A DNA stretch of 64,000 nt from the NCBI GenBank assembly GCA_963719505.1, contig CAVRCF010000005.1:192001-256000 (forward strand), read 5' to 3'. Shown here piece by piece: positions 23,873-36,345 of this stretch. Each line of letters starts with the position of its first letter. Positions within the stretch are counted from its first letter, which is position 1. The stretch comes from Halobacteriovoraceae bacterium (GTDB lineage: Bacteria; Bdellovibrionota; Bacteriovoracia; Bacteriovoracales; Bacteriovoracaceae). A model generated the notes under the pieces. The model did not search any database. It had not been told where the DNA came from and saw only the letters and a list, made by a program, of their open reading frames with translations. The position numbers and the translations under genes are program-made.

Positions 23873-24165
23873 TTTAATTTTTCGTCGCGAGAGAATGTGA
23901 GTATTTTTGTCTGTTTCTTCTCGGTACTAATATACTCTATAAAATCTTTCGATTTCGAATTGCTTACATTTCTATCGACAATGACAAAGTCATAGGGATC
24001 ATGCTCTAACTTTTGAACAAGCTTTGCTCCGTCCATATAGCTGTCGACAAATTTTATTCCAAGGTCAACTTCTTGGTCTTTAAAGAAATCTAAAATCTCA
24101 ACTCTCATTGTGGGTTTTGTGAGTACGATAAGGGCTTGCTTAAAATTTAAGTCACTTAGTTCCAT
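23860..24165 (-). CDS. Small degenerate receiver-like protein
   Basis: YDFVIVD resembles the REC phosphoacceptor strand; overlaps the YcaO gene end. Confidence 0.5.
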   Translation of the reverse strand: MELSDLNFKQALIVLTKPTMRVEILDFFKDQEVDLGIKFVDSYMDGAKLVQKLEHDPYDFVIVDRNVSNSKSKDFIEYISTEKKQTKILTFSRDEKLNYFK

Positions 24166-26327
24166 GAATTCCTTTTAGTGAGAAGCTTTTTATAGCTCTC
24201 TATTAACTTTTGATGTTTGTCTAAATTATCTAGTTTGCTATTTGTTTGTTCCATTCCATAAAATTTCACATCCCCTCGAAGAGTGCTTATTGCAGTGGAG
24301 TAGAGTTTGTCGGTGAACATTCTTTTCAAGTTTTCTTCATAGTTTTTATGACTCTCTTCTTCATCTTGCTCTATATGGATAAGAGCATCTAAAAGTTGAA
24401 AGAATCTTCTTCTTTTGGGGAGATTGTCATTAAACTTACTAAGCATTTCAACGTACTCTTGGGCCTCTTCTAAGTTGCCTATAGCAAGGAGTGAGAGAGC
24501 TTTCAGTTCTCCGATATTGAGTTGTCCCCATACTGAGTTCTCATCAAAAGCGATACCAATAAGCTCGGAGATAGGCATATAATTATCGAGCTCACTCTCA
24601 TCTAGATTCGAGACAAGTGTCGCAAGCTCTTCATTTGTTAAAGAGTGTATATTTAAAATTCGTTCTCTGTAATTTAGGGCTTGATTATTATTATTCCAAA
24701 TTAAATCCTCAATAGGATAAATTTCAGAAAATCCTGGAACTAAGATTCTACAACCTTTTGCCCCTAAGTCTTCATAATCTGCTATATAGGCTTCTAACTC
24801 CAACTCTTCTAACATGTTGAAAAGATAGTCGTGTTCGACTTGTGTCGATCCTTCTATATTCCAGTCGACAAATTTGTAGTCAGGACTATTGCTAAAGAAT
24901 CTCCACGATATAACGCCTGTGGAATCAATAAAGTGATCAATAATATTATTTTGTTCACTGATGGCAAAACTAGAAAACGTCGGAGGAAGAATATCATTCA
25001 TGCCTTCAAAACTTCTTCCCTGCAATAGTTCTGTAAGACTCCTTTCAAGAGCCACTTCAAACTTTGGATGAGAACCAAATGAGGCAAAGACGCCGCCATT
25101 TTTTGGGTTCATAAGGGTGACACAAAGAACAGGGAATTGACCACCCAAAGAAGCATCCTTGACCACAATGGGGAATCCCTTGCTTTCAAGTTCTTTGATA
25201 CCTTCTTCTATCTTTGGAAATCTTGCGATGACGTCCTTTGGAACATCTGGGAGAGTGATCTCTTCAGTAATAATCTTGTTTTTGATAGCTCTTTCATAAA
25301 TCTCAGAGAGCGCTTGTACACGTGCTTCAGTGATAGTATTTCCAGCACTCATACCGTTGCTAACGAAAAGATTACCAATAAGATTAACTGGGATAAAGCT
25401 CACTTTTTTATCCGAAAAACGGGTAAAAGGAATGGCACATATTCCTCTTTCACTATTTCCTGAGTTTGTATCAATAAGATGCGAGAGTTGAAGTTCACCA
25501 TCTTGAGCGTAGGTTTCTAAAAGGTATCCATCCATTAATTCGGGATGAAAGTCTTCTGAAACTGGAAACCATCTTTCATCTTTGTAATGGACAAAGGGTG
25601 AGTTTGAGATTTCTTCCCCTAGATAAAAGTCGTTATAGAAGTAATTATTACTTATTCTTTCTAGGTATTCTCCAAGTGCCGAACAAAGAGCTGCATCTTT
25701 CGTTGCCCCTTTTCCATTTGTGTAACACATAGGACTGTGGGCGTCTCTAACATGAACGGACCAAACATGGGGGACAAGGTTTCGCCAAGAGGCAATCTCT
25801 ATTGTGATTCCTAGATCTTCAATGATTGATGTCATGGTTTTTATTGTCTGTTCTAAAGGGAGATCTTTGCCAAGAATATGTGTTTTTGAGTCCTTTGTTT
25901 CAGACTCATAGATAACTCCTCCAGAAGGTTTTGAAGCGGTTATGGCATCAATTTTAAATTCTGGTGAGTTTTGAATCACTCTTTTAACGGAGCATCTCTC
26001 CATTGCGGCAATGATTCCTTTTTGATCTTTATCAGATATTGTGTCTGGGAGTTGTAATTGGATATGAATCGTTTGTTTGTACCTATTTTCAGGATCAACA
26101 ATATTGTTTTGTGTCAGGGTAATATCATTTGTAGAGATATCGCGGGCTTTGCAGTAGACCTTAACGAAGTAGGCCGCACACATGGCCGAGGATGCTAGAA
26201 AGTAGTCAAAGGGACCAGGCGCTGTAGCGTCACCTTTATAGCGAACAGGCTGATCAGAGACAATATTGTAATCATCAAAATTAGCTTGAAGCCTTAAATT
26301 TTCTAAATACTCTACGTTAACTTGCAT
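24156..26327 (-). CDS. OsmC-domain/YcaO-domain fusion protein
   Basis: N-terminal OsmC (DQP...GP.DYFLAS.AMC, C-SVKR); YcaO motifs TNGKGAT..AALCSALGEY.ER, SNGMSAGN, SEIYER, LERSLTELLQGR. Confidence 0.92.
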   Translation of the reverse strand: MQVNVEYLENLRLQANFDDYNIVSDQPVRYKGDATAPGPFDYFLASSAMCAAYFVKVYCKARDISTNDITLTQNNIVDPENRYKQTIHIQLQLPDTISDKDQKGIIAAMERCSVKRVIQNSPEFKIDAITASKPSGGVIYESETKDSKTHILGKDLPLEQTIKTMTSIIEDLGITIEIASWRNLVPHVWSVHVRDAHSPMCYTNGKGATKDAALCSALGEYLERISNNYFYNDFYLGEEISNSPFVHYKDERWFPVSEDFHPELMDGYLLETYAQDGELQLSHLIDTNSGNSERGICAIPFTRFSDKKVSFIPVNLIGNLFVSNGMSAGNTITEARVQALSEIYERAIKNKIITEEITLPDVPKDVIARFPKIEEGIKELESKGFPIVVKDASLGGQFPVLCVTLMNPKNGGVFASFGSHPKFEVALERSLTELLQGRSFEGMNDILPPTFSSFAISEQNNIIDHFIDSTGVISWRFFSNSPDYKFVDWNIEGSTQVEHDYLFNMLEELELEAYIADYEDLGAKGCRILVPGFSEIYPIEDLIWNNNNQALNYRERILNIHSLTNEELATLVSNLDESELDNYMPISELIGIAFDENSVWGQLNIGELKALSLLAIGNLEEAQEYVEMLSKFNDNLPKRRRFFQLLDALIHIEQDEEESHKNYEENLKRMFTDKLYSTAISTLRGDVKFYGMEQTNSKLDNLDKHQKLIESYKKLLTKRNSWN

Positions 26328-28077: not shown

Positions 28078-29402
28078 TATAGAAACTAGACGATTATGTC
28101 CTATCCTTATTTCTCAGCGATTATGTCCTATTCAATAATATTTATGTACCCTGATTCCAATCAGTTATCAGGGGAATTGAATGGGAAAAGTCACTATGTC
28201 ACAAAAAGAATTGAAGCAGTATCGCCTGGCCATGGATGTTATTGAAGGTAAGTTAACTATAATTTCCTTCTCTGAACAGATTGGAAAATCGTATCGACAA
28301 TCTCAGAGAATTATCAATAAAGTTAAGGCCAAGGGTTCGATTGGTGTCTTACATGGAAACATTAATCGAACTCCTCACAATAAAACTCCATTCGAAGTTG
28401 AAGAAAAAATAGTCTCTCTTCTAAAAAATCAATATCGAAACTTTAATCTAACTCATTTTCGAGAAAAGATAGAAGAGTATGAGGAAATTAAAATCAAAAA
28501 AGATGCACTTCACTCAATTGCTAGGAAACATTGCCTTGTAAAACATCCTAAACGAAGAGGAAGACGGTGCCATAAACCAAGAGCAAGACTTCCAAAAGAA
28601 GGGATGATGATTCAGTTTGATGGAAGTGATCATACTTGGTTCGGTGATGAAAGAACTGATTTGATTGGAGGAATTGATGATGCTACCGGGATTGTTGTTG
28701 GTGCTGAATTTTTCTATGGAGAGACGTCAAATAACTCTCTGAAGGTGATTAGGGAGATCGTTGATAACTATGGATTGCCAGAAAGTTTCTATATGGACCA
28801 AGCAGGTATTTATGGTAAGAAAGAGCGCGAGTGGGAATCACAAATTTCGAGAGCATTTGATCAAACAGGAATTCAATTAATCTTAGCAGGTTCTTCTCAA
28901 GCAAAGGGAAGAATAGAGAGACTCTGGAGAACATTCCAAGACAGACTGGTAGCGGAGTTAGAATTTAATCACATAACAAATATTGAAGAAGCCAATTATT
29001 ACTTAAAAGAGATTTTTATTCCTGCATACAATTTTCAATTCTCAGTCAAAGCCGAAGAAGAAGAAGAAAAAGCCTGGAGAAAAAATGTTTTTGGAGACCT
29101 AGATATTATATTTTGTAAAAAGATTAGGCGAAAAATTATGGTTGGAAATGTATTTAGTTGGGAGAATGTGACTTGGGTGTTGGATGAAAAAAGGTGTTTC
29201 TATGGACGAGAAATCAATATAAATATTCACCTTGATGGAAGCTACAGCTTCGATGTGATGGGCAGAAAAGTTCAATGTAAAGTTAGTAATAGGAAAAGAT
29301 TAAGTGACTATGGTGATAAGTCGAAACACAGAAAAAGCGCTTAAAGTCTGATAGGACATAATCGCTCAGAAATTAACCGGACATAATTGCCCAGAAACAA
29401 CA
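28078..29402 (+). mobile_element. IS1202-family insertion sequence (ISTde1-subgroup-like)
   Basis: Tandem binding repeats CGATTATGTCCTAT at 28091 and 28118, inverted at 29351 and (shorter) 29379; ends TAT/TGT; flanking direct repeat TACTTGATTTGAACTG (28062-28077 and 29403-29418), extendable to 21 bp. Confidence 0.85.
28181..29344 (+). CDS. IS1202/ISNCY-family DDE transposase
   Basis: HGN..R.PHN, MIQFDGSDHTWF, IDDATG, FYMDQ, SSQAKGRIERLWRTFQDRL; RBS within hairpin CCCTGAT/ATCAGGG (28149-28173). Confidence 0.95.
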   Translation: MGKVTMSQKELKQYRLAMDVIEGKLTIISFSEQIGKSYRQSQRIINKVKAKGSIGVLHGNINRTPHNKTPFEVEEKIVSLLKNQYRNFNLTHFREKIEEYEEIKIKKDALHSIARKHCLVKHPKRRGRRCHKPRARLPKEGMMIQFDGSDHTWFGDERTDLIGGIDDATGIVVGAEFFYGETSNNSLKVIREIVDNYGLPESFYMDQAGIYGKKEREWESQISRAFDQTGIQLILAGSSQAKGRIERLWRTFQDRLVAELEFNHITNIEEANYYLKEIFIPAYNFQFSVKAEEEEEKAWRKNVFGDLDIIFCKKIRRKIMVGNVFSWENVTWVLDEKRCFYGREININIHLDGSYSFDVMGRKVQCKVSNRKRLSDYGDKSKHRKSA

Positions 29403-29511
29403 TACTTGATTTGAACTGTATAGCTTTTAGACAGCCCTCTGTAATAGTGTAAAGAGCCTTAATTCCAAGCTTAAAGTTTGCTAGTATTTATAAAAACTTG
29501 TTGGAGCTCAG

Positions 29512-30516
29512 ATGAAGTTAATTGTTACTCTTTTTATTCTCTCTTTTTATAGTTATGGTGAAAGTACCTGTATTGTGACAAGGGCCGGTATTGATATCGG
29601 TAGTGGCACAACCAAATTAAAAGTGGCAAAAGTTGATTTTTGTACGCAAAATATAGTCTCTATTATTCATCAATCCAATATTGCTGTCGGTTATAAAGAG
29701 GATCTAAAGTCTTCTTCGACAAATGAGCTCAGTCTTAATATTTTCAACCAAGGTCTTAGTGCTTTAAACGAGCTCAAGTCAAAGGCGATAAGTTTTGGAG
29801 CTGACTCGGTTAATGCGGTTGCGACATCGGCTTTTAGAACAGCAAAAAATGGTCATCAGTGGGCGAAAAGACTCGAGTTAAAATCGGGTGTGAAGATTAA
29901 GATTATCACTCAAAAAGAAGAAGCTATCATTGGATTCACTGGAGCTATCTCAAAGTCAGACAGCTCAGGAGATACAAGCGTTGTTTGGGATATTGGCGGT
30001 GGATCCATGCAGCTGACGGGTTTTACAACTCATAATGACTTTGAAATCTATGAAGGAAAACTAGCGGCTGTCTCTTTTAAAAATCATATCCTCAGTGAAA
30101 TTAAAATGAATTCAAGTTTGTCTTCACCTAATCCTATGACTAATGATCAAAGGGAGATTGCTTTAAGAGATGCCAAAATAATAGCTAAAATTACCGTCAG
30201 TGATAAGATGAAAGAGAAAATAAAATCTTCAAGCATTATTGGTATTGGGGGAGTTCACTTTAATAGTCTGTTAAAAAATATTACCGATAAAAACTTCTAC
30301 ACCATTGAAAATATTGATAAAAGACTGGAGGAGACAAAGGAGCTTTCAGATCACCAAATTGGTAGTCCTTATGCAAGTACTGATATTTCTAATTTAATAT
30401 TGGTCAAAGGTTTTATGCAGGCTCTAGGTATAAAAAAAGTTATGGCCATTGAAGTTAATTTGGTAGAAGGCATATTAGTTAATCCTGCTCTTGTCACTAA
30501 TGCCAACTCGTTATAA
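29512..30516 (+). CDS. Ppx/GppA-family (ASKHA) phosphatase with signal peptide
   Basis: GIDIGSGT, VATSAFR, EEA, WDIGGGSMQ; hydrophobic N-terminus. Confidence 0.85.
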   Translation: MKLIVTLFILSFYSYGESTCIVTRAGIDIGSGTTKLKVAKVDFCTQNIVSIIHQSNIAVGYKEDLKSSSTNELSLNIFNQGLSALNELKSKAISFGADSVNAVATSAFRTAKNGHQWAKRLELKSGVKIKIITQKEEAIIGFTGAISKSDSSGDTSVVWDIGGGSMQLTGFTTHNDFEIYEGKLAAVSFKNHILSEIKMNSSLSSPNPMTNDQREIALRDAKIIAKITVSDKMKEKIKSSSIIGIGGVHFNSLLKNITDKNFYTIENIDKRLEETKELSDHQIGSPYASTDISNLILVKGFMQALGIKKVMAIEVNLVEGILVNPALVTNANSL

Positions 30517-30775
30517 AGCCAAACATATTCTACTAGAGGATATGGACGATGCCATGGAGATTCGTGAGCAAATTCTTCTAGGAGAGTCTTTCGAAAAACT
30601 TGCCAAGGACTTTTCCGAATGCGATTCCAGTGAAAAAGGGGGAATGCTCGGTTGGTTCTCCAGTGGCGCGATGGATGCCGAGTTTGAAAAAGCTCTTTTT
30701 CATCTCAAGAAGGATGAAATATCAAAACCGGTTAAAACAAAATACGGCTATCATCTTATTGTTAGATTAGAATAA
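30500..30775 (+). CDS. ppiC: Parvulin-type peptidyl-prolyl isomerase
   Basis: AKHILL, FEKLAKDFSEC.S..KGG.LG.F, FEKA.F, PVKTKYGYHLI. Confidence 0.9.
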   Translation: MPTRYKAKHILLEDMDDAMEIREQILLGESFEKLAKDFSECDSSEKGGMLGWFSSGAMDAEFEKALFHLKKDEISKPVKTKYGYHLIVRLE

Positions 30776-30817
30776 AAAAGTTTGGAGAAAAGAGTGGGAG
30801 GACATCCTTTCTCCAAA
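30774..30817 (-). terminator. Rho-independent terminator for the minus-strand riboswitch RNA
   Basis: 10-bp stem TTTGGAGAAA/TTTCTCCAAA; T6 tract follows only on the minus strand. Confidence 0.75.
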
Positions 30818-30866
30818 ACTAATTAAAACTTAAAAAGCGAGAAAGAAAATCGAAATTAATTGATTT

Positions 30867-31027
30867 ACTATAAAGCACTCCATCACATTGATGACAGTAA
30901 GTAGGATTCAACCCAATCTTCCCAAGAAGTAGTTACCAGTTACTTCTTTCGGCTCATTATCCCTGGGAAGGTTTCGCGGGCATTTGGTTGCCTCCACCTT
31001 CTTACTTATAAGAGCACCTCTTTAAGT
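30867..31027 (-). ncRNA. Lysine riboswitch (L-box) aptamer
   Basis: Minus strand AGAGGTGC..AGTA..GCCGAA..TGG..ACTGTC..GGAGTGCT in correct order. P1, P2 (GCTC/GAGC), P2a (GAAGGT/ACCTTC), P2b (GGCA/TGCC), P3 (AGAAGTA/TACTTCT) and P5 can form; L2 ACCA pairs with L3 TGGT. Confidence 0.85.
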
Positions 31028-31034
31028 TATTAAT

Positions 31035-31062
31035 ATGATACGTAGATTTTTGAAAAATGCAA
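31035..31062 (-). promoter_or_regulatory. Putative sigma70 promoter of the riboswitch RNA
   Basis: TTGCAT-N16-TATCAT ending 7 nt upstream of aptamer P1. Confidence 0.6.
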
Positions 31063-31070
31063 TAAAGGAA

Positions 31071-31532
31071 ATGATGAAAAATTTTAAAGTTTGGATAGAT
31101 GCTGATGCCTGCCCCAAGATGGTCAAAGAAGTTGTCTTTAAAGCATGCAATAAACAACAAATTAACCTTATTTTGGTCGCCAACTCTTATATGCAAATAC
31201 CCCAGTCCCCTTATATAAGGCTGATTCAAGTTGAAAAAGGGGATGATGTCGCCGATCAGTACATCGTCGATAATCTAGACCCAAATGATCTGGTTATAAC
31301 CGCTGACATTCCCCTGGCCGCTTTCGTGGTTGAAAAAAAAGCCACGGCCATTAATCCTAGAGGAGAGCTCTACACTGAGGAAAATATAAGAGAGAGGCTC
31401 TCTGTGAGAGACTTTATGGCTGATCTTCGAGATTCTGGGGTAGACACTGGTGGTCCAAGTGCCTTTGATCTCAAGGATAAGGAGCGCTTTGCAAATTCTT
31501 TCAATCGAATGGTTACAAAGCTTCTGAAGTAA
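31071..31532 (+). CDS. YaiI/YqxD (DUF188) family protein
   Basis: WIDADACP, D.ADQYI, DLVITADIPLA, INPRGELY. Confidence 0.92.
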   Translation: MMKNFKVWIDADACPKMVKEVVFKACNKQQINLILVANSYMQIPQSPYIRLIQVEKGDDVADQYIVDNLDPNDLVITADIPLAAFVVEKKATAINPRGELYTEENIRERLSVRDFMADLRDSGVDTGGPSAFDLKDKERFANSFNRMVTKLLK

Positions 31533-31545
31533 CGTATAAGCAGGT

Positions 31546-32787
31546 ATGACTAAATTCAAAGACTTAAAATTAGATGAAAAGATTCAAAAAGCACTTATTG
31601 ATAAAGGCTACACTGAACCCACTCCCATTCAAGCCCAGGCGATTCCAGACCTTTTAAAAAGAAGAGATCTTTTAGGAATTGCTCAAACTGGTACAGGAAA
31701 AACTGCAGCCTTTTCTTTACCACTTCTTCATAATCTCAATGAAAACCCTATCAAAACCAATCGCAATAATTGTAGGGCGCTTATACTAACTCCAACAAGA
31801 GAGTTGGCTTCTCAAATAGAGGCAAACATCTTGGGGTATTCAAAGTTTCTGAACTTCTCAACTAAAGTTATCTTTGGTGGTGTTTCGGAAAAACCTCAGA
31901 TTTCAGCCCTCAACTCAGGGGTCGATATCGTGGTTGCCACTCCAGGAAGACTCCTCGATCTTATTGGGCAAAAGAAAATTAAATTTGATCAACTCGAGAC
32001 CTTTATTTTAGACGAAGCCGACAGAATGCTTGATATGGGCTTTCTTAATGATGTTAAGAAAATAGTAAAATTAATTCCAAAGAAGCGACATACTCTTTTA
32101 TTTTCAGCGACTATGCCTGCTGAGATAAAGAAACTTGCTATGGATCTGTTGGATAATCCAAAAAAAGTAGAAATAACACCAGAGTCGACGACTGTTGAAA
32201 AGATTGAACAAACACTTTTATTTGTAGAGAAATCAGATAAGCGACGTCTTCTTGAAAGTGTCCTTGAAGACAAGGATATAAAAAAGGTTTTGGTTTTTTC
32301 GAGAACGAAACATGGCGCTGATAGAATTGTTAAAAATTTAACTCAGGCCAAGGTCTCGTCAGTTGCAATTCATGGCAATAAGTCTCAAAATGCTAGAGAG
32401 AGAGCTCTGAGCGAATTTACAAACGGCAAGGCCCGAGTCTTAGTTGCAACCGATATTGCGGCTCGTGGAATCGATATAAAAGATGTCTCTCATATTATAA
32501 ACTTTAACCTACCAGAAGATTCTGAAAGTTATGTCCACCGAATTGGTCGTACGGCCAGAGCGGGAAAAAGTGGTGTTGCGATCTCTTTTTGCGATGGTTC
32601 TGAATTGAAGTTTTTAAAGGGGATAGAAAAAACTATTGGGATGGAAATTCCAAAAAATACTGATCATCCTTTTCACACAGATAAAAAAAGCTTAACACCT
32701 CCAGCTCCTAAAGAGCCAAGAGGTCAAAGGCCAGCACAAAACAAGAATCAAAGCCGTAAAAAACAACAGCGAAGAGGAAGAAACTAA
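31546..32787 (+). CDS. DEAD-box RNA helicase (RhlE-like)
   Basis: PTPIQ, AQTGTGKT, DEAD, SAT, ARGID, HRIGRTARAG. Confidence 0.95.
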   Translation: MTKFKDLKLDEKIQKALIDKGYTEPTPIQAQAIPDLLKRRDLLGIAQTGTGKTAAFSLPLLHNLNENPIKTNRNNCRALILTPTRELASQIEANILGYSKFLNFSTKVIFGGVSEKPQISALNSGVDIVVATPGRLLDLIGQKKIKFDQLETFILDEADRMLDMGFLNDVKKIVKLIPKKRHTLLFSATMPAEIKKLAMDLLDNPKKVEITPESTTVEKIEQTLLFVEKSDKRRLLESVLEDKDIKKVLVFSRTKHGADRIVKNLTQAKVSSVAIHGNKSQNARERALSEFTNGKARVLVATDIAARGIDIKDVSHIINFNLPEDSESYVHRIGRTARAGKSGVAISFCDGSELKFLKGIEKTIGMEIPKNTDHPFHTDKKSLTPPAPKEPRGQRPAQNKNQSRKKQQRRGRN

Positions 32788-33404
32788 AACTTATTTCTTC
32801 TGTAACCTTCGATGTTTGGATCATTTTGGTAATCAATTTGAGTTTGAATCATTTTTCTAAAAGGATTAAGAAAAGTGTCTGTCTGGGTCTTCGTTACTTT
32901 TTCTAAATTTATTGCACTCAATTCTTCTAAGACGACTTTTACAGACTCTATAGTAGAGAGGCAGTAGTCTTTGGGCTGCTTTTTAAATTCATAGATCGAT
33001 TCTGACGTTGAATGAAAGCTTATTTTTGGTAGCGCCCGAAGGTTTGGAGAGAGCTTCATTAACTTTTTTGAACACGGCCAGGTTGCATCGATAATAAAGA
33101 TCGTATTGTCTTCTTCAGTTGGAATTGATTGGACTTCAAGAGCATCTTCTCCCGGATAGAGAACATAGCAGTTTGTGGTCTGGATAAGTTCATTTACCCT
33201 TTTATGATCAGCAAATGATTCCCCCATGTAAAATTCAGAATTCACAAGGGACAGGTGAGTCATGCGACCTGTATTATTTTTAACTTTTTTAAACTCGTGC
33301 ACATGAATCAGAACAACGAAAAGGGTCTTAGTCTCAATAGGATTAATATCTTCACAAAAGCAAAGTGTTCTTGGCCTCATACATTTATAGCATTTCTCTC
33401 GCAT
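32784..33404 (-). CDS. tapT: tRNA-uridine aminocarboxypropyltransferase (DTW domain)
   Basis: N-terminal CxxC...CxC, HE, NTG, IIDATW, LSTIE. Confidence 0.88.
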   Translation of the reverse strand: MREKCYKCMRPRTLCFCEDINPIETKTLFVVLIHVHEFKKVKNNTGRMTHLSLVNSEFYMGESFADHKRVNELIQTTNCYVLYPGEDALEVQSIPTEEDNTIFIIDATWPCSKKLMKLSPNLRALPKISFHSTSESIYEFKKQPKDYCLSTIESVKVVLEELSAINLEKVTKTQTDTFLNPFRKMIQTQIDYQNDPNIEGYRRNKF

Positions 33405-33901: not shown

Positions 33902-34957
33902 ATGAGAAATAAAGCGTTAGTTTTAATGATTGTTCTATTCAGTTTTTCAGCATCGGCAAAAACATTTTCTATCATGTCTTACAATATTGAAAATCTCTTT
34001 GATACTGTTCATGACGAAGGTAAAAAAGACTACACCTACCTTCCTTTAAAAGTGAAACAATCCAGTCCTAAAATTCAAGCTTACTGTGCGGCTATGAGAG
34101 TGAGGCATTACAAAAGAAGCTGTTACAAGCTTGATTGGAATATGGACACTTATAAAGCCAAAATTAAAAACCTCGCTCGAGTCATTCTCTCTTTCAATAA
34201 AGGCTTAGGGGCTGACATTATCGTTTTCCAAGAAGTTGAAAATAAAAATGCCTTAAAAGATTTGATCAAATACGGCCTAGAAGGCCATGGTTATAAATAT
34301 ATCTCCCTCATCGAAGGTCCAGATGCTCGTGGGATTGATATTGGAATGATCTCTCGTTATCCCATCGTTTCAGAAAAACTTAATCAAGTAGATATCTCAA
34401 CAGCTGCAAGGGGTAGTAAGACCAGAGGGATCTTGGAGACGACCTTTGATATAGACTCAAAGCTTGTGACTGTCTTTGGTAATCACTGGCCTAGTCAGGG
34501 AAATAACGACAGAACAAGACTAATTGCTTCAAAGGTTCTGGAAAAAGCCGCACTTGCATCTAAGTCAGATTTAGTTATCGCCCTAGGTGACTTTAATCAA
34601 ACCCACAGCGATTCTCCTCACGGAATAAATTTAAATATTCTTCCCCTTTTTGAGGACGTAGAAGTTCTTGGGAGGACATTTTCAAATGAGTCAGCTTACG
34701 GAACTCATTGGTATAGAGGTGGTTGGGAATCATTAGATAGAATTTTTGTTCTAAAGTCTTCGCTAAAGTCGACCACCTATATTGATCACAGTGCTTTTGA
34801 TATTGTTAACGAAAACTTTATGGTGAGAGACTTTGACTGGACGGACTTTGATACTGGTGGTCAAAATTTAGATAACAATATCCCATGGCGATTTAATACT
34901 AAGTCTAAAGAGGGTTACTCTGATCATCTTCCGGTGGGAATAAGTATCAATCTTTAA
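33902..34957 (+). CDS. Secreted endonuclease/exonuclease/phosphatase family protein
   Basis: Signal peptide; YNIENLFD, FQEVEN, NHWPS, GDFN, LDRI, SDHLP. Confidence 0.9.
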   Translation: MRNKALVLMIVLFSFSASAKTFSIMSYNIENLFDTVHDEGKKDYTYLPLKVKQSSPKIQAYCAAMRVRHYKRSCYKLDWNMDTYKAKIKNLARVILSFNKGLGADIIVFQEVENKNALKDLIKYGLEGHGYKYISLIEGPDARGIDIGMISRYPIVSEKLNQVDISTAARGSKTRGILETTFDIDSKLVTVFGNHWPSQGNNDRTRLIASKVLEKAALASKSDLVIALGDFNQTHSDSPHGINLNILPLFEDVEVLGRTFSNESAYGTHWYRGGWESLDRIFVLKSSLKSTTYIDHSAFDIVNENFMVRDFDWTDFDTGGQNLDNNIPWRFNTKSKEGYSDHLPVGISINL

Positions 34958-35192
34958 ACAGATCTCGTTTTTGATCTCGGGAGAGTTGCTTGATAGCGTA
35001 CTCTCTTTTTAAGGCTTCACTTTTTGTCTCAACCGTTTCTGAATAAACAATTTTTATGGGTGGATCGGTGCGAAAAAACTTAGCTCCCTTGCCAGACTTA
35101 TGTTTTTCGAGCCTTGCATCTAAGTCTTTGGTGATACCGGTATATAACCGCTTCTTTTTCGTTTCAATGATATAAATAAACCATTTTTCCAA
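34947..35192 (-). CDS. GIY-YIG nuclease (YhbQ/UPF0213-like)
   Basis: WFIYII...LYTGIT.DL.ARL..H.SGKGAKF, ALKREYAIK; TTG start inferred. Confidence 0.88.
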   Translation of the reverse strand: MEKWFIYIIETKKKRLYTGITKDLDARLEKHKSGKGAKFFRTDPPIKIVYSETVETKSEALKREYAIKQLSRDQKRDLFKD

Positions 35193-35238
35193 GTTAAAAC
35201 CTTTGCTATATCCCTGATCTGTTGGGTATAGTTTTCGG

Positions 35239-36345
35239 ATGAATAAATACAATCTCAAAGACATAAGTATTGTTAACACAATATTTCTTATACTTACGCC
35301 TACTACTGCTTTGCTATCTCTTGTCATGTGGCTAAGGACAGCTTCTTTTGATATTAACGTCTTAGTTTTTATAGTAGCAACTTATATTATATCAGGAATT
35401 TCAATTACTGCAGGCTACCATAGGCTTTTTGCCCACAAGACATATTCGGCAAATCCTTTTGTTAAATTTTTCTTTCTCATCTTTGGGGCCACGGCTTTTC
35501 AAAACTGCGTTTTAAAATGGGCCAGCGATCACAGACTCCACCACTCAAAAGTAGATGGACAAGATGATCCCTATAATATCAACGAGGGCTTTTTCTATGC
35601 CCATATGGGATGGATATTTTTAAAGAAGAACTCTGAGATTAAGACTCGTTACGCAAAGGACATGTTGAGTGATAGGCTTATCATGTGGCAACATAAATAC
35701 TACACATCTATTGCTGTTGTGTTTGGAATACTTCTCCCAGGCGCTTTAGCCTTTTTACTTTTTAATAATATCTACGCGGCGATCGCTTGTGTTTTTATGC
35801 GAATTGTTCTCGTACACCACTGTACATTTTTTATTAATTCTCTTTGCCATGTCTTTGGATCGACTCCTTATACAGCTATTAATTCCGCTAAGGACAACTG
35901 GTTGATGGCTTATTTTACCTTCGGTGAGGGCTATCATAACTTTCATCACTTTTTTCAAACCGACTTTAGAAATGGTATCCGCTGGTATGACTTTGATCCT
36001 ACAAAGTGGTTGATAAAAACTTTGGCCCATTTAAAATTGGCAAGTGATTTAAAAGTTACTCCAAAAAGAAGTATTATCAAAGCGAAGCTCAACATGAGAA
36101 TGCAAGCTCTTGGAAGCCATGATGTCTCAAGACTCTCTGACCTAGAAGAGTTACAAAAACAAATACTGGAATCTTTGAAAAATCTAGAACACTTTAAAAA
36201 TGAATTAAAACTCAAAAAAAGAGAATTTGATAAATTTTCAAAAAAGATTTTAAAAAATAGAATTAATCAAGCCAAGAAGGAACTTCACCTGCATTTGGTT
36301 TTGTGGAAATTAAGTATAAAAAGACTTGAACAATCCTATATCTAA
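35239..36345 (+). CDS. Delta-9 acyl-CoA/lipid fatty acid desaturase
   Basis: His boxes HRLFAH, HRLHH, GEGYHNFHH; DPTKW. Confidence 0.93.
   Translation: MNKYNLKDISIVNTIFLILTPTTALLSLVMWLRTASFDINVLVFIVATYIISGISITAGYHRLFAHKTYSANPFVKFFFLIFGATAFQNCVLKWASDHRLHHSKVDGQDDPYNINEGFFYAHMGWIFLKKNSEIKTRYAKDMLSDRLIMWQHKYYTSIAVVFGILLPGALAFLLFNNIYAAIACVFMRIVLVHHCTFFINSLCHVFGSTPYTAINSAKDNWLMAYFTFGEGYHNFHHFFQTDFRNGIRWYDFDPTKWLIKTLAHLKLASDLKVTPKRSIIKAKLNMRMQALGSHDVSRLSDLEELQKQILESLKNLEHFKNELKLKKREFDKFSKKILKNRINQAKKELHLHLVLWKLSIKRLEQSYI

What the first reader, a model, noticed from the sequence alone, without database searches (positions are those of the whole stretch)
30774..31062. Orphan lysine riboswitch transcription unit aimed antisense at ppiC and a Ppx/GppA-like gene
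Seen on the minus strand: a sigma70-like promoter (31062-31035), a lysine-aptamer-like fold (31027-30867) with ordered core motifs and a complementary L2-L3 kissing pair, and an intrinsic terminator (30817-30774). The ORF track shows no minus-strand ORF between this unit and the IS1202 element, and ppiC converges on the terminator. Known: lysine riboswitches normally precede lysC/dap/lysA or lysine transporter genes; other riboswitch classes are known to control antisense or trans-acting RNAs (SAM in Clostridium, B12 in Listeria). Inference: this is a roughly 250-nt lysine-sensing RNA that either acts in trans or reads through to silence ppiC/ppx, or it is a relic of a deleted gene. The usual GAAAGG opposite AGUA reads CCAGGG, so ligand affinity or specificity may differ.
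Basis: partly seen in the sequence, partly recalled or inferred. Interest (0 to 1): 0.8.

Follow-up and report, generated by a model that had tools for sequence, protein, structure and literature searches.

The report
Gene-less lysine riboswitch facing ppiC
A genuine lysine-sensing RNA switch with its own promoter and terminator but no gene behind it points at the tail of a protein-folding gene, has been kept intact by selection in two related species, and so probably controls a non-coding or antisense RNA rather than a lysine gene.

Summary
Rfam's Lysine model (RF00168) matches window 31030-30865 (minus strand) over its full length at 67 bits, against a cut-off of 30. It is the only copy in this genome. 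A strong hairpin plus U6 follows at 30820-30774, and its U-tract overlaps the ppiC stop codon. No credible minus-strand ORF follows.

In the family survey, 51 of 58 examined aptamer sites precede lysC or asd-lysC. In this genome, asd and lysC are 86 nt apart with no switch.

It is not a decaying relic. Congener G002 has the same unit converging on its ppiC. Between the two species, 13 of 30 aligned stem pairs changed on both sides and none broke. ppiC third codon positions are only 47% identical.

A conserved antiterminator and a conserved mimic of the P1 3' strand point, weakly, to a lysine-ON design.

My best reading is a lysine-gated non-coding RNA whose read-through form is antisense to ppiC. 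That design is known for SAM and B12 switches, not for lysine. The "altered specificity" idea is not supported. This scan earlier found gene-less B12 and c-di-GMP switches on other DNA.

The parts
31035..31062 (-). Promoter-like site: TTGCAT (31062-31057), 16-nt spacer, TATCAT (31040-31035). The predicted start is about 31029-31027.
   Evidence: Read. It falls below the scan's threshold. The homologous G002 site is TTGATA-16-TATAAT, 11 of 12, with the same spacing to the aptamer.
30865..31030 (-). Lysine riboswitch aptamer (five-helix junction, P1-P5).
   Evidence: RF00168, 67 bits, E 3.6e-17, full length. All 28 columns invariant among the 16 family aptamers are kept. Folding each domain alone gives the canonical helices.
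30839..30851 (-). Strand X: the 5' strand of a putative antiterminator. It pairs with the 5' arm of the terminator (30814-30803).
   Evidence: The hairpin at 30854-30800 folds at -13.8 kcal/mol, z -3.0, with 2 of 200 shuffles as good. The G002 counterpart folds at -16.0, z -4.5, 0 of 200, and carries a compensating U-A to G-C change.
30827..30837 (-). Strand Y: a mimic of the P1 3' strand, complementary to the P1 5' strand (alternative helix 'P1alt').
   Evidence: In both species the full-length minimum-energy fold pairs the P1 5' strand with Y and keeps the terminator. The pairing is 11 bp in G000 and 9 bp in G002 (counted by eye).
30774..30820 (-). Intrinsic terminator: a stem-loop followed by U6 at 30779-30774, which overlaps the ppiC stop codon (30773-30775).
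   Evidence: -16.7 kcal/mol, z -3.89; coordinates. On the plus strand no U-run follows the hairpin.
30491..30775 (+). ppiC (parvulin-type peptidyl-prolyl isomerase), convergent on the unit. The likely start is ATG 30500.
   Evidence: Pfam Rotamase, E 8.9e-25. NCBIfam PpiC/PrsA-type models match.
29512..30516 (+). Ppx/GppA-like gene overlapping the ppiC start. Long read-through from the switch would also be antisense to it.
   Evidence: Pfam Ppx-GppA, E 7.2e-23, N-terminal half only. This gene is absent from the G002 locus.
31071..31532 (+). yaiI/yqxD (DUF188) gene, divergent from the switch promoter. It is not part of the unit.
   Evidence: NCBIfam PRK00124, 178.8 bits. In G002 this gene lies on another contig.

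Best explanation
This is an intact lysine riboswitch, maintained by selection, that has been uncoupled from lysine genes. It forms a self-contained non-coding transcription unit on the minus strand: promoter (31062-31035), aptamer (31030-30865), antiterminator/terminator platform (30851-30774).

Lysine binding decides between two products. One is a terminated RNA of about 250 nt. The other is a transcript that runs on, fully antisense, through ppiC, and in this genome also through the ppx-like gene. The most likely output is cis control of ppiC by antisense pairing or transcriptional interference. This is how the B12-gated AspocR in Listeria and the S-box antisense unit in Clostridium acetobutylicum work.

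Shown here:
- the aptamer is present and intact;
- the terminator is present;
- the gene layout is convergent;
- the unit is conserved, with compensatory change, in a second species.

Inferred:
- that the unit is transcribed from this promoter;
- that lysine changes termination;
- that ppiC is the target.

The direction of the switch is unresolved. I lean about 60:40 to lysine-ON. When P1 is locked, Y and X are free to build the antiterminator. Without lysine, the P1 5' strand pairs with Y and the terminator forms.
For: 1. Family membership: 67 bits against a cut-off of 30, full-length match.

2. Context: there is no same-strand ORF downstream. ppiC ends inside the terminator's U-tract.

3. 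Conservation: G002 has a 72.9-bit aptamer at L032:2011-1838 (minus strand). It again converges on a ppiC orthologue (64% identity) and has a -17.1 kcal/mol terminator with a U-run. The flanks differ on both sides. On one side G000 has the ppx-like gene and an IS, G002 a ceramidase-like gene. On the other side G000 has yaiI and a DEAD-box gene, G002 an Ig-like protein gene.

4. Selection: of 30 aligned P2-P4 base pairs, 15 are the same, 2 changed on one side, 13 changed on both sides and 0 are broken. The L2-L3 kissing pair covaries, ACCA:UGGU in G000 and GCCA:UGGC in G002 (by eye). The aptamer is identical at 115 of 164 aligned columns. ppiC third codon positions are identical at 42 of 90.

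5. Platform: the antiterminator hairpin is significant in both species. P1alt is present in the minimum-energy folds of both. The terminator's energy advantage over the antiterminator state shrinks when P1 is enforced. In G000 it goes from -10.2 to -5.5 kcal/mol, and in G002 from -9.7 to -3.6.

6. Uncoupling: in G000, lysC and asd are 86 nt apart. In G002, lysC has a spacer of about 130 nt. Neither leaves room for an aptamer.

7. Precedents: riboswitch-gated antisense RNAs (PMC7154746, passages of section 1.1) and lysine-ON switches on catabolic genes (PMC5584792, passages of section 13).

8. Weak hint of transcription: one 208-nt metatranscriptome contig, 100% identical, covers 30698-30905 and so crosses the terminator.
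Against: - No strand-specific expression data exist. The one contig carries no strand information and could come from DNA or from ppiC read-through.
- I know of no physiological link between lysine and a parvulin isomerase.
- The G000 promoter does not pass the scan's threshold.
- RS-ppiC linkage was seen in only 2 genomes. It was not found at the ppiC loci of G001 and G003, nor at 20 ppiC loci of other genera.
- Because the unit abuts ppiC with no spacer, linkage could persist without any function.
- The helix that would tie P1 to strand X is not significant in G000 (-1.2 kcal/mol, z -0.3).
- The equilibrium-fold logic behind the ON lean did poorly on 9 evaluable relatives: 5 went in the expected direction, 2 were unchanged and 2 went the opposite way.
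- The zero count of broken pairs is partly by construction, because each structure was predicted on its own sequence.
Confidence: 0.45

Rival explanations
1. The RNA is a trans-acting or ligand-buffering riboswitch RNA. The terminated RNA of about 250 nt would be the functional product. It would act as a base-pairing or protein-binding small RNA whose abundance or shape reports lysine, or as a lysine sponge. Its position next to ppiC would be incidental.
For: The unit is complete and ends in a stable hairpin with a U-tail. The terminator loop holds a C-rich run (UCCUCCC) that is conserved in both species. In another predator, a gene-less c-di-GMP riboswitch RNA (merRNA) is massively expressed and was proposed to act as a sponge (PMC3627812, passages). 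This genus's lysC has no cis switch, so a trans regulator would fill a gap.
Against: I scanned the terminator-loop region against 2625 crude translation-initiation regions. This did not pick out lysine genes: asd ranked 271, lysC 1275, dapB 1495, dapA 2203 and dapD 2335; lysA was not in the list. A sponge for an abundant amino acid such as lysine is implausible (inference). No expression level is known.
Confidence: 0.2
2. The unit is a functionless relic. The switch would be left over from a lysine gene lost or moved in the ancestor of G000 and G002, and would simply not yet have decayed.
For: In 51 of 58 examined family sites the switch precedes lysC or asd-lysC. An ISNCY element lies 1.4 kb away. 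G000 scores 67 bits, near the low end of the 55-106 bit range among the 14 relatives found. A second gene-less copy, in G095, sits in a genome where lysC was not found, so gene loss that leaves a switch behind does occur in this family.
Against: Two species whose ppiC third codon positions are only 47% identical keep all 28 family-invariant core columns. They show 13 two-sided compensatory pair changes with none broken, a covarying kissing loop, a promoter with the same geometry, an antiterminator with a compensating change and a terminator. A neutral 290-nt stretch would not retain all of this.
Confidence: 0.1
3. The unit is the long leader of a distant same-strand gene. Read-through would cross ppiC in antisense and then express a downstream minus-strand gene. 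In G002 that gene is a 251-aa ceramidase/DUF6962-like membrane protein, about 400 nt past the terminator.
For: In G002 the next gene beyond ppiC lies on the switch's strand (L032:1359-604). It is a multi-pass membrane protein (Pfam Ceramidase, E 1e-8). An ON-type switch would suit an exporter.
Against: In G000 the homologue of that gene lies on another contig, C1:130890-131621, behind a different upstream gene. On the switch's strand in G000, the next ORFs lie beyond the ppx-like gene and the IS. The family has no known link to lysine. A convergent gene nested inside a leader would be unusual.
Confidence: 0.07
4. The hairpin is mainly ppiC's own (bidirectional) terminator, and the switch merely shares it. 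The aptamer would then modulate nothing, or only insulate ppiC from the genes downstream.
For: The hairpin also folds on the plus strand: -14.7 kcal/mol in G000 and -18.5 in G002. ppiC has no other terminator.
Against: On the plus strand no U-run follows the hairpin in either species, whereas on the minus strand U6 follows in both. This idea does not explain the conserved aptamer, the antiterminator or the P1 mimic.
Confidence: 0.05

Closest known systems
Lysine riboswitch (L box, Rfam RF00168) in lysC / lysC-dap leaders. This includes the lysC-dapB-dapA-dapD-lysA operon listed for Bacteriovorax marinus (PMC5584792, table passage).
   Same: The aptamer architecture and core are the same (67 bits). 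The aptamer is closest to those of family relatives that precede lysC; for example, L098 shares nearly the whole P4 stem-loop.
   Different: No lysine gene, or any gene, follows on its strand. The platform is a terminator/antiterminator. In 14 relatives the gap is short (21-105 nt in 13 of them) and I saw no terminator; in some a CUCC-type run faces the SD (by eye). This genus's lysC has no switch.
AspocR (rli39), the B12-riboswitch-gated antisense RNA to pocR in Listeria monocytogenes (Mellin et al. 2013, as summarised in PMC7154746, section 1.1).
   Same: A riboswitch with its own promoter lies convergent to a protein gene. Ligand-dependent termination decides whether an antisense RNA is made.
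   Different: The ligand class is lysine rather than B12. In Listeria the ligand and target are metabolically linked (B12 and propanediol use), whereas no link between lysine and ppiC is known. Nothing has been tested experimentally here.
S-box (SAM) riboswitch antisense unit downstream of ubiG-mccBA in Clostridium acetobutylicum (Andre et al. 2008, as summarised in PMC7154746).
   Same: A convergent riboswitch-terminator unit sits at the 3' end of its target. A cis mechanism (transcriptional interference) was proposed there, and that is also my preferred reading here.
   Different: The ligand class and the phylum differ. There, the target operon belongs to the ligand's own metabolism.
merRNA, the gene-less c-di-GMP riboswitch RNA of Bdellovibrio bacteriovorus (PMC3627812, passages).
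   Same: It is a riboswitch with no conserved downstream ORF, found in a predatory bacterium and conserved only within a narrow lineage.
   Different: merRNA is 445 nt, massively expressed, and was proposed to store its ligand. Here the expression level is unknown, and a sponge for lysine is unlikely.
Lysine-ON riboswitches before lysine catabolic genes (kal/kce) in Clostridium sticklandii, Fusobacterium and Thermoanaerobacter (PMC5584792, section 13 passages).
   Same: The aptamer class is the same, possibly with the opposite (activating) logic, as the platform here hints.
   Different: Those switches sit in front of protein-coding genes of lysine degradation. The ON logic here is only a computational lean.

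Membership tests
Lysine riboswitch (Rfam RF00168) | A covariance-model score above the curated gathering score, over the full model. | tested here: met
   67.0 bits against 30, E 3.6e-17, model positions 1-182 of 182.
Lysine riboswitch (Rfam RF00168) | A five-helix junction with the conserved junction nucleotides. | tested here: met
   All 28 columns invariant among the 16 family aptamers are present. P2, P2a, P2b, P3, P4 and P5 fold when each domain is folded alone. Which nucleotides contact lysine is recalled, not tested.
Lysine riboswitch (Rfam RF00168) | An L2-L3 kissing-loop interaction. | tested here: met
   L2 ACCA pairs with L3 UGGU in G000. In G002 the pair is GCCA with UGGC, a compensated change (sequences, pairing read by eye).
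Lysine riboswitch (Rfam RF00168) | Binds L-lysine selectively. | not testable with these tools
   This needs in-line probing or ITC. The CCAGG variant of the P2 internal loop is shared with lysC-linked switches of relatives, so there is no sequence reason to expect another ligand.
Lysine riboswitch (Rfam RF00168) | Lies in the 5' leader of a lysine biosynthesis, transport or catabolism gene. | tested here: not met
   No ORF of 70 aa or more starts within 450 nt on its strand in G000 or G002. ppiC converges on the unit.
Riboswitch-gated antisense RNA (AspocR / S-box-ubiG type) | A riboswitch with its own promoter, convergent to the 3' end of a protein gene. | tested here: met
   The layout is shown. 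The promoter-like site scores 11 of 12 in G002 and is below threshold in G000.
Riboswitch-gated antisense RNA (AspocR / S-box-ubiG type) | A ligand-controlled terminator placed before the target, with an alternative antiterminator. | tested here: inconclusive
   Terminator and antiterminator hairpins are significant in both species. Dependence on the ligand is inferred only, and the control of the folding logic was weak.
Riboswitch-gated antisense RNA (AspocR / S-box-ubiG type) | A read-through transcript that overlaps the target mRNA. | tested here: inconclusive
   One 208-nt metatranscriptome contig at 100% identity spans 30698-30905, across the terminator. Its strand and its RNA origin are not shown.
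Riboswitch-gated antisense RNA (AspocR / S-box-ubiG type) | A functional link between the ligand and the target gene. | tested here: not met
   The target is a parvulin isomerase. No lysine-related function was found. ppiC loci of other genera have no switch (0 of 20).

The most novel reading that the evidence does not exclude
In this predatory-bacterium genus the lysine riboswitch would have been detached from lysC and rebuilt as a lysine-ON transcriptional switch. The rebuild uses a P1-strand mimic together with an antiterminator. The switch's only product would be regulatory RNA. High lysine, for example from digested prey, would drive an antisense transcript through ppiC. Alternatively, a stand-alone lysine-sensing small RNA would act in trans. 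Either way this would be the first amino-acid riboswitch known to work purely through non-coding RNA. A second, independent gene-less copy in G095 hints that this may recur in the family.
Probability: 0.3. Interest if true: 0.8.

Novelty: new variant of a known kind. Interest (0 to 1): 0.6.

Why it matters
Lysine riboswitches are textbook cis-regulators of lysine synthesis and transport genes. A copy that is kept by selection with no gene behind it would extend the short list of riboswitch-gated antisense or stand-alone RNAs. That list currently covers SAM, B12 and c-di-GMP switches; this case would add an amino-acid sensor, in a little-studied predatory lineage.

It also offers a natural pair of diverged templates, G000 and G002. 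With them one can test an unusual platform, in which a mimic of the P1 3' strand competes for the P1 5' strand, and ask whether that platform inverts the usual OFF logic.

There is a practical lesson too. Default Rfam filters missed a 67-bit riboswitch in a 64-kb scan. The genome search's first look missed the 72.9-bit copy in G002. Absences reported by such screens therefore need a second method.

Tried and rejected
- **Default Rfam scan.** The gathering scan of the whole window gave 0 matches. This was a filter artefact, overturned.
- **CM search of congeners.** The search of G001-G003 found nothing, but it missed G002's 72.9-bit copy, so I did not use it as evidence of absence. A core-motif pattern then found 1 site each in G000 and G002 and none in G001 (87% complete) or G003 (82% complete).
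- **Exact 16-mer search of genome contigs.** 42 loci were returned. I scanned L066 and L068 with Rfam. L066 has an aptamer with the same alignment and score as G002's and is not counted as independent. L068 has none.
- **Gapped lineage-specific pattern.** Metagenome contigs gave 6 loci, none riboswitch-like by eye. Genome contigs gave 4 loci, of which only L098 (lysC-linked) and L066 are relevant.
- **Tool scans for promoters and terminators.** The scan lists no terminator in either species and no promoter at the G000 site. I relied on folds with shuffle controls instead.
- **Helix between the P1 tail and strand X.** It is not significant in G000 (z -0.3) and only moderate in G002 (z -2.3). 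I dropped it as a pillar of the model.
- **Trans-target scan.** Scanning the terminator loop against 2625 crude start regions gave no enrichment of lysine genes.
- **Control of the P1-enforced against free folding logic.** Of 12 relatives, 9 were evaluable: 5 went as expected, 2 were unchanged and 2 went the opposite way. The ON/OFF call stays tentative.
- **Small ORFs.** A 12-codon ORF inside the terminator and a 10-codon ORF antisense to ppiC were considered. The first is not conserved in G002. The second is imposed by ppiC coding (read by eye).
- **ppiC synteny.** rpsA-ppiC-xth occurs only in G001; none of 31 other ppiC loci has rpsA or xth beside it. No ancestral context could be inferred.
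- **Sequencing runs.** Only one run, with a small share, was found. Apart from one contig, the laid pieces are short conserved DEAD-box fragments with mismatches. Parts without cover say nothing.
- **Earlier notes of the scan by place.** Nothing was found.
- **Literature.** The listing (20 of 107 papers shown) and the passages read describe no gene-less or antisense lysine riboswitch. Supplementary tables of PMC5584792 were not seen and could list such cases.
Full report
**What is there**

On the minus strand, Rfam's Lysine model (RF00168) matches window 31030-30865 over its whole length (positions 1-182). The score is 67.0 bits against a gathering score of 30, with E 3.6e-17. A search of the window's own genome (3.69 Mb, 5 contigs, 83.5% complete) finds this place and no other. 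The default gathering scan of the full 64 kb found nothing. That was a speed-filter miss and is a warning about negative screens.

Upstream lies TTGCAT, a 16-nt spacer, then TATCAT (31062-31035, read). This falls below the promoter scan's threshold. Downstream, 30822-30768 folds into a hairpin of -16.7 kcal/mol (z -3.89; 0 of 200 shuffles as good). U6 follows at 30779-30774. The tool's own terminator scan misses this hairpin because of its loop limit.

The U-tract overlaps the stop codon of ppiC (30491-30775, plus strand; Pfam Rotamase, E 8.9e-25). All real neighbours lie on the plus strand:
- a Ppx/GppA-like gene (29512-30516),
- ppiC,
- yaiI/DUF188 (about 31071-31532),
- a DEAD-box helicase gene.

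Between the unit and the ISNCY transposase gene (28181-29344), the only minus-strand ORFs of 40 aa or more are 41 and 45 aa. Both lie inside ppiC/ppx antisense.

**What relatives do**

A covariance-model search of 61 genomes found the switch in 14, all in the same family (14 of 36 family genomes). That run used stricter filters and missed G000 itself.

I then used a core-motif pattern, AGAGGNGC...GCCGAA...CTGTCA. It has 59 sites in 58 of 151 family genomes, and its reversed control has 0. I examined 58 of the 59 sites; the G063 site, which looks like a chance match, was not fetched. The first same-strand gene at these sites is:

| First same-strand gene | Sites |
|---|---|
| lysC | 47 |
| asd (in the two checked by Pfam, lysC follows) | 4 |
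| dapA (G133) | 1 |
| Na:alanine-symporter-family transporter (G005) | 1 |
| 349-aa lipoprotein of unknown family (G125, first copy) | 1 |
| none called (201 nt from a contig end; G125, second copy) | 1 |
| none (G000, G002, G095) | 3 |

Sources for the table are. For lysC, 46 sites come from my own lysC profile and 1 was read by eye. The usual operon, lysC-dapB-dapA-dapD-lysA with a divergent asd, is the one listed for Bacteriovorax marinus in PMC5584792 (table passage).

In the 14 relatives first examined, the gap between aptamer and start codon is short (21-105 nt in 13 of them). I saw no intrinsic terminator. In some, a CUCC-type run faces the Shine-Dalgarno sequence, which looks like translational control (by eye).

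**Uncoupling from lysC in this genus**

G000 has lysC and asd back to back on another contig, with only 86 nt between their start codons. G002, a congener, has lysC behind a spacer of about 130 nt. Neither spacer can hold a 166-nt aptamer. In these two species the single lysine switch is therefore not at lysC.

**The same gene-less unit in a second species**

A DNA search placed window 30511-31056 on G002 at 68% identity. cmscan then found a full-length Lysine aptamer there at 72.9 bits (L032:2011-1838, minus strand). The genome tool's first look had missed it.

The G002 unit again converges on a ppiC orthologue (64% identity). Its terminator folds at -17.1 kcal/mol (z -3.93) and is followed by a U-run that here lies inside the ppiC reading frame. 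Its promoter-like site is TTGATA-16-TATAAT, 11 of 12, with the same distance to the aptamer as in G000.

Both flanks differ between the species. In G002, ppiC is preceded by a ceramidase-like membrane-protein gene and a C92 peptidase gene. Their G000 homologues lie on contig C1. On the other side, G002 has an Ig-like secreted-protein gene where G000 has yaiI and the helicase gene. A DTW-domain gene follows in both.

The switch was not found in G001 (87% complete) or G003 (82% complete), either with the pattern or at their ppiC loci. It was also not found at 20 ppiC loci of other genera.

**Selection, not decay**

All 28 columns that are invariant among the 16 family aptamers are kept in G000 and G002. 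I folded each aptamer domain on its own in each species and aligned the helices from their bases. Of 30 base pairs in P2, P2a, P2b, P3 and P4:
- 15 are identical,
- 2 differ on one side,
- 13 differ on both sides and still pair,
- none is broken.

There is a caveat. The structures were predicted per sequence, so pairs are canonical by construction. What is not by construction is that the helices have the same positions and lengths in both species.

The L2-L3 kissing pair also covaries: ACCA:UGGU in G000 and GCCA:UGGC in G002 (by eye). The aptamer is identical at 115 of 164 aligned columns. For ppiC codon positions 1, 2 and 3, identity is 65, 67 and 42 of 90. The lineages have thus diverged enough to randomise unconstrained sites, and a neutral relic would not look like this.

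However, the same variant occurs in switches of relatives (G014, G024, G031, G077, G129, G141 and others) that are followed by lysC, or by asd ahead of it. It therefore gives no reason to expect altered specificity.

**The expression platform**

Three elements downstream of the aptamer are shared by both species.

1. Strand X (30851-30839) pairs with the terminator's 5' arm and forms a hairpin that excludes the terminator. It folds at -13.8 kcal/mol (z -3.0) in G000 and -16.0 (z -4.5) in G002, with a U-A to G-C compensation.
2. Strand Y (30837-30827) lies inside that hairpin. It is complementary to the P1 5' strand, so it mimics the P1 3' strand. In the full-length minimum-energy fold of both species the P1 5' strand pairs with Y and the terminator is formed.
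3. The terminator itself.

When P1 is enforced, the terminator state is favoured over the antiterminator state by 5.5 kcal/mol (G000) and 3.6 (G002). Unconstrained, it is favoured by 10.2 and 9.7. This suggests an ON design. Lysine locks P1, Y and X are free, the antiterminator forms first, and transcription reads through. Without lysine, Y captures the P1 5' strand and the terminator forms.

I hold this only loosely, at about 60:40, for three reasons:
- A helix that would couple the P1 tail to X is not significant in G000.
- The two alternative helices cross, and the folding program cannot score crossing helices.
- The same kind of equilibrium comparison on relatives that should be OFF switches gave the expected direction in only 5 of 9 evaluable cases, with 2 unchanged and 2 opposite.

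Lysine-ON switches are described for catabolic genes (PMC5584792, section 13 passages).

**What it most likely does**

The layout is that of the known riboswitch-gated antisense RNAs. Examples are the B12 switch rli39/AspocR facing pocR in Listeria, and the S-box unit facing ubiG-mccBA in Clostridium acetobutylicum. For the latter a cis interference mechanism was proposed (PMC7154746, section 1.1 passages).

I therefore rank first a lysine-gated non-coding RNA whose long form is antisense to ppiC (confidence 0.45). The weak points are that lysine has no known link to a parvulin isomerase, and that linkage to ppiC could persist simply because the two abut.

A trans-acting or buffering RNA is the main rival (0.2). 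merRNA of Bdellovibrio is a gene-less riboswitch RNA in another predator (PMC3627812, passages). However, a duplex scan of the conserved C-rich terminator loop against 2625 crude start regions did not single out lysine genes.

The other rivals are a relic (0.1), a leader for the G002 membrane-protein gene (0.07) and a merely shared ppiC terminator (0.05).

**Expression**

One public metatranscriptome run holds a 208-nt contig that is 100% identical to 30698-30905. It crosses the terminator, from the 3' part of the aptamer into ppiC. Contigs carry no strand information, and DNA carry-over is possible. It therefore shows at most that some nucleic acid from this locus, spanning the terminator, was in an RNA library.

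**Novelty**

The aptamer class and the antisense design are both known. The combination is what I did not find described: a lysine switch with no gene, conserved under selection, with a terminator platform unlike its relatives' and possibly inverted logic. This rests on the listing (20 of 107 papers shown) and the passages read. Supplementary files were not seen.

This scan has earlier noted gene-less B12 and c-di-GMP-II switches facing genes on other DNA, so the kind recurs. I rate the finding a new variant of a known kind, with interest 0.6.

Noticed in passing
L167:2974-3147 (minus strand; genome G095, another genus of the family): A second, independent gene-less lysine riboswitch (77.1 bits). 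It is followed by a GC-rich terminator and then by two convergent subtilase (Peptidase_S8) genes. lysC was not found in G095 with a lysC query at E 1e-20, and the genome is 99% complete.
   Followed up: partly
L166:1492-1665 and L166:3007-3178 (genome G125, same genus as G095): Two lysine riboswitches lie 1.5 kb apart on one strand (72.3 and 76.6 bits). The first has a terminator and precedes a 349-aa lipoprotein with no Pfam family. The second lies 201 nt from the contig end. lysC is on another contig.
   Followed up: partly
G000:C2:409622-410271 (outside the window): dapB appears split by a frameshift. Two tblastn pieces lie in different frames, and a stop follows the first. This is either a sequencing error or a decaying gene. 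lysA has only a 27%-identical hit.
   Followed up: partly
window 1-64000; also G002: Screening tools missed true riboswitches. The default Rfam gathering scan of 64 kb missed the 67-bit match. The stricter-filter genome run missed G000 itself. The genome search's first look missed the 72.9-bit copy in G002.
   Followed up: yes
window 28181-29344 (+): An ISNCY-family transposase gene (NCBIfam NF033594, 313 bits against a cut-off of 250; no Pfam hit) lies between a minus-strand gene block and the ppx-like gene. Its ends and copy number were not examined.
   Followed up: no
window 24156-26327 (-): A 723-aa protein that fuses an N-terminal OsmC-like domain to a YcaO cyclodehydratase with its C-terminal domain. 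Two family-less ORFs with hydrophobic N-termini (116 and 304 aa) lie just upstream of it on the same strand.
   Followed up: no
window 30698-30905: The only part of window 29500-32800 held at 100% identity in the one public metatranscriptome run found is a 208-nt contig centred on the terminator. The neighbouring genes have no identical cover.
   Followed up: partly
window 34947-35327 (-) and L042:1239-1499 (+): By eye, a small protein that looks GIY-YIG-like (no family search was run) is encoded 4 kb from the unit in G000. A similar gene lies directly upstream of, and overlapping, the ppiC-like gene of G003.
   Followed up: no
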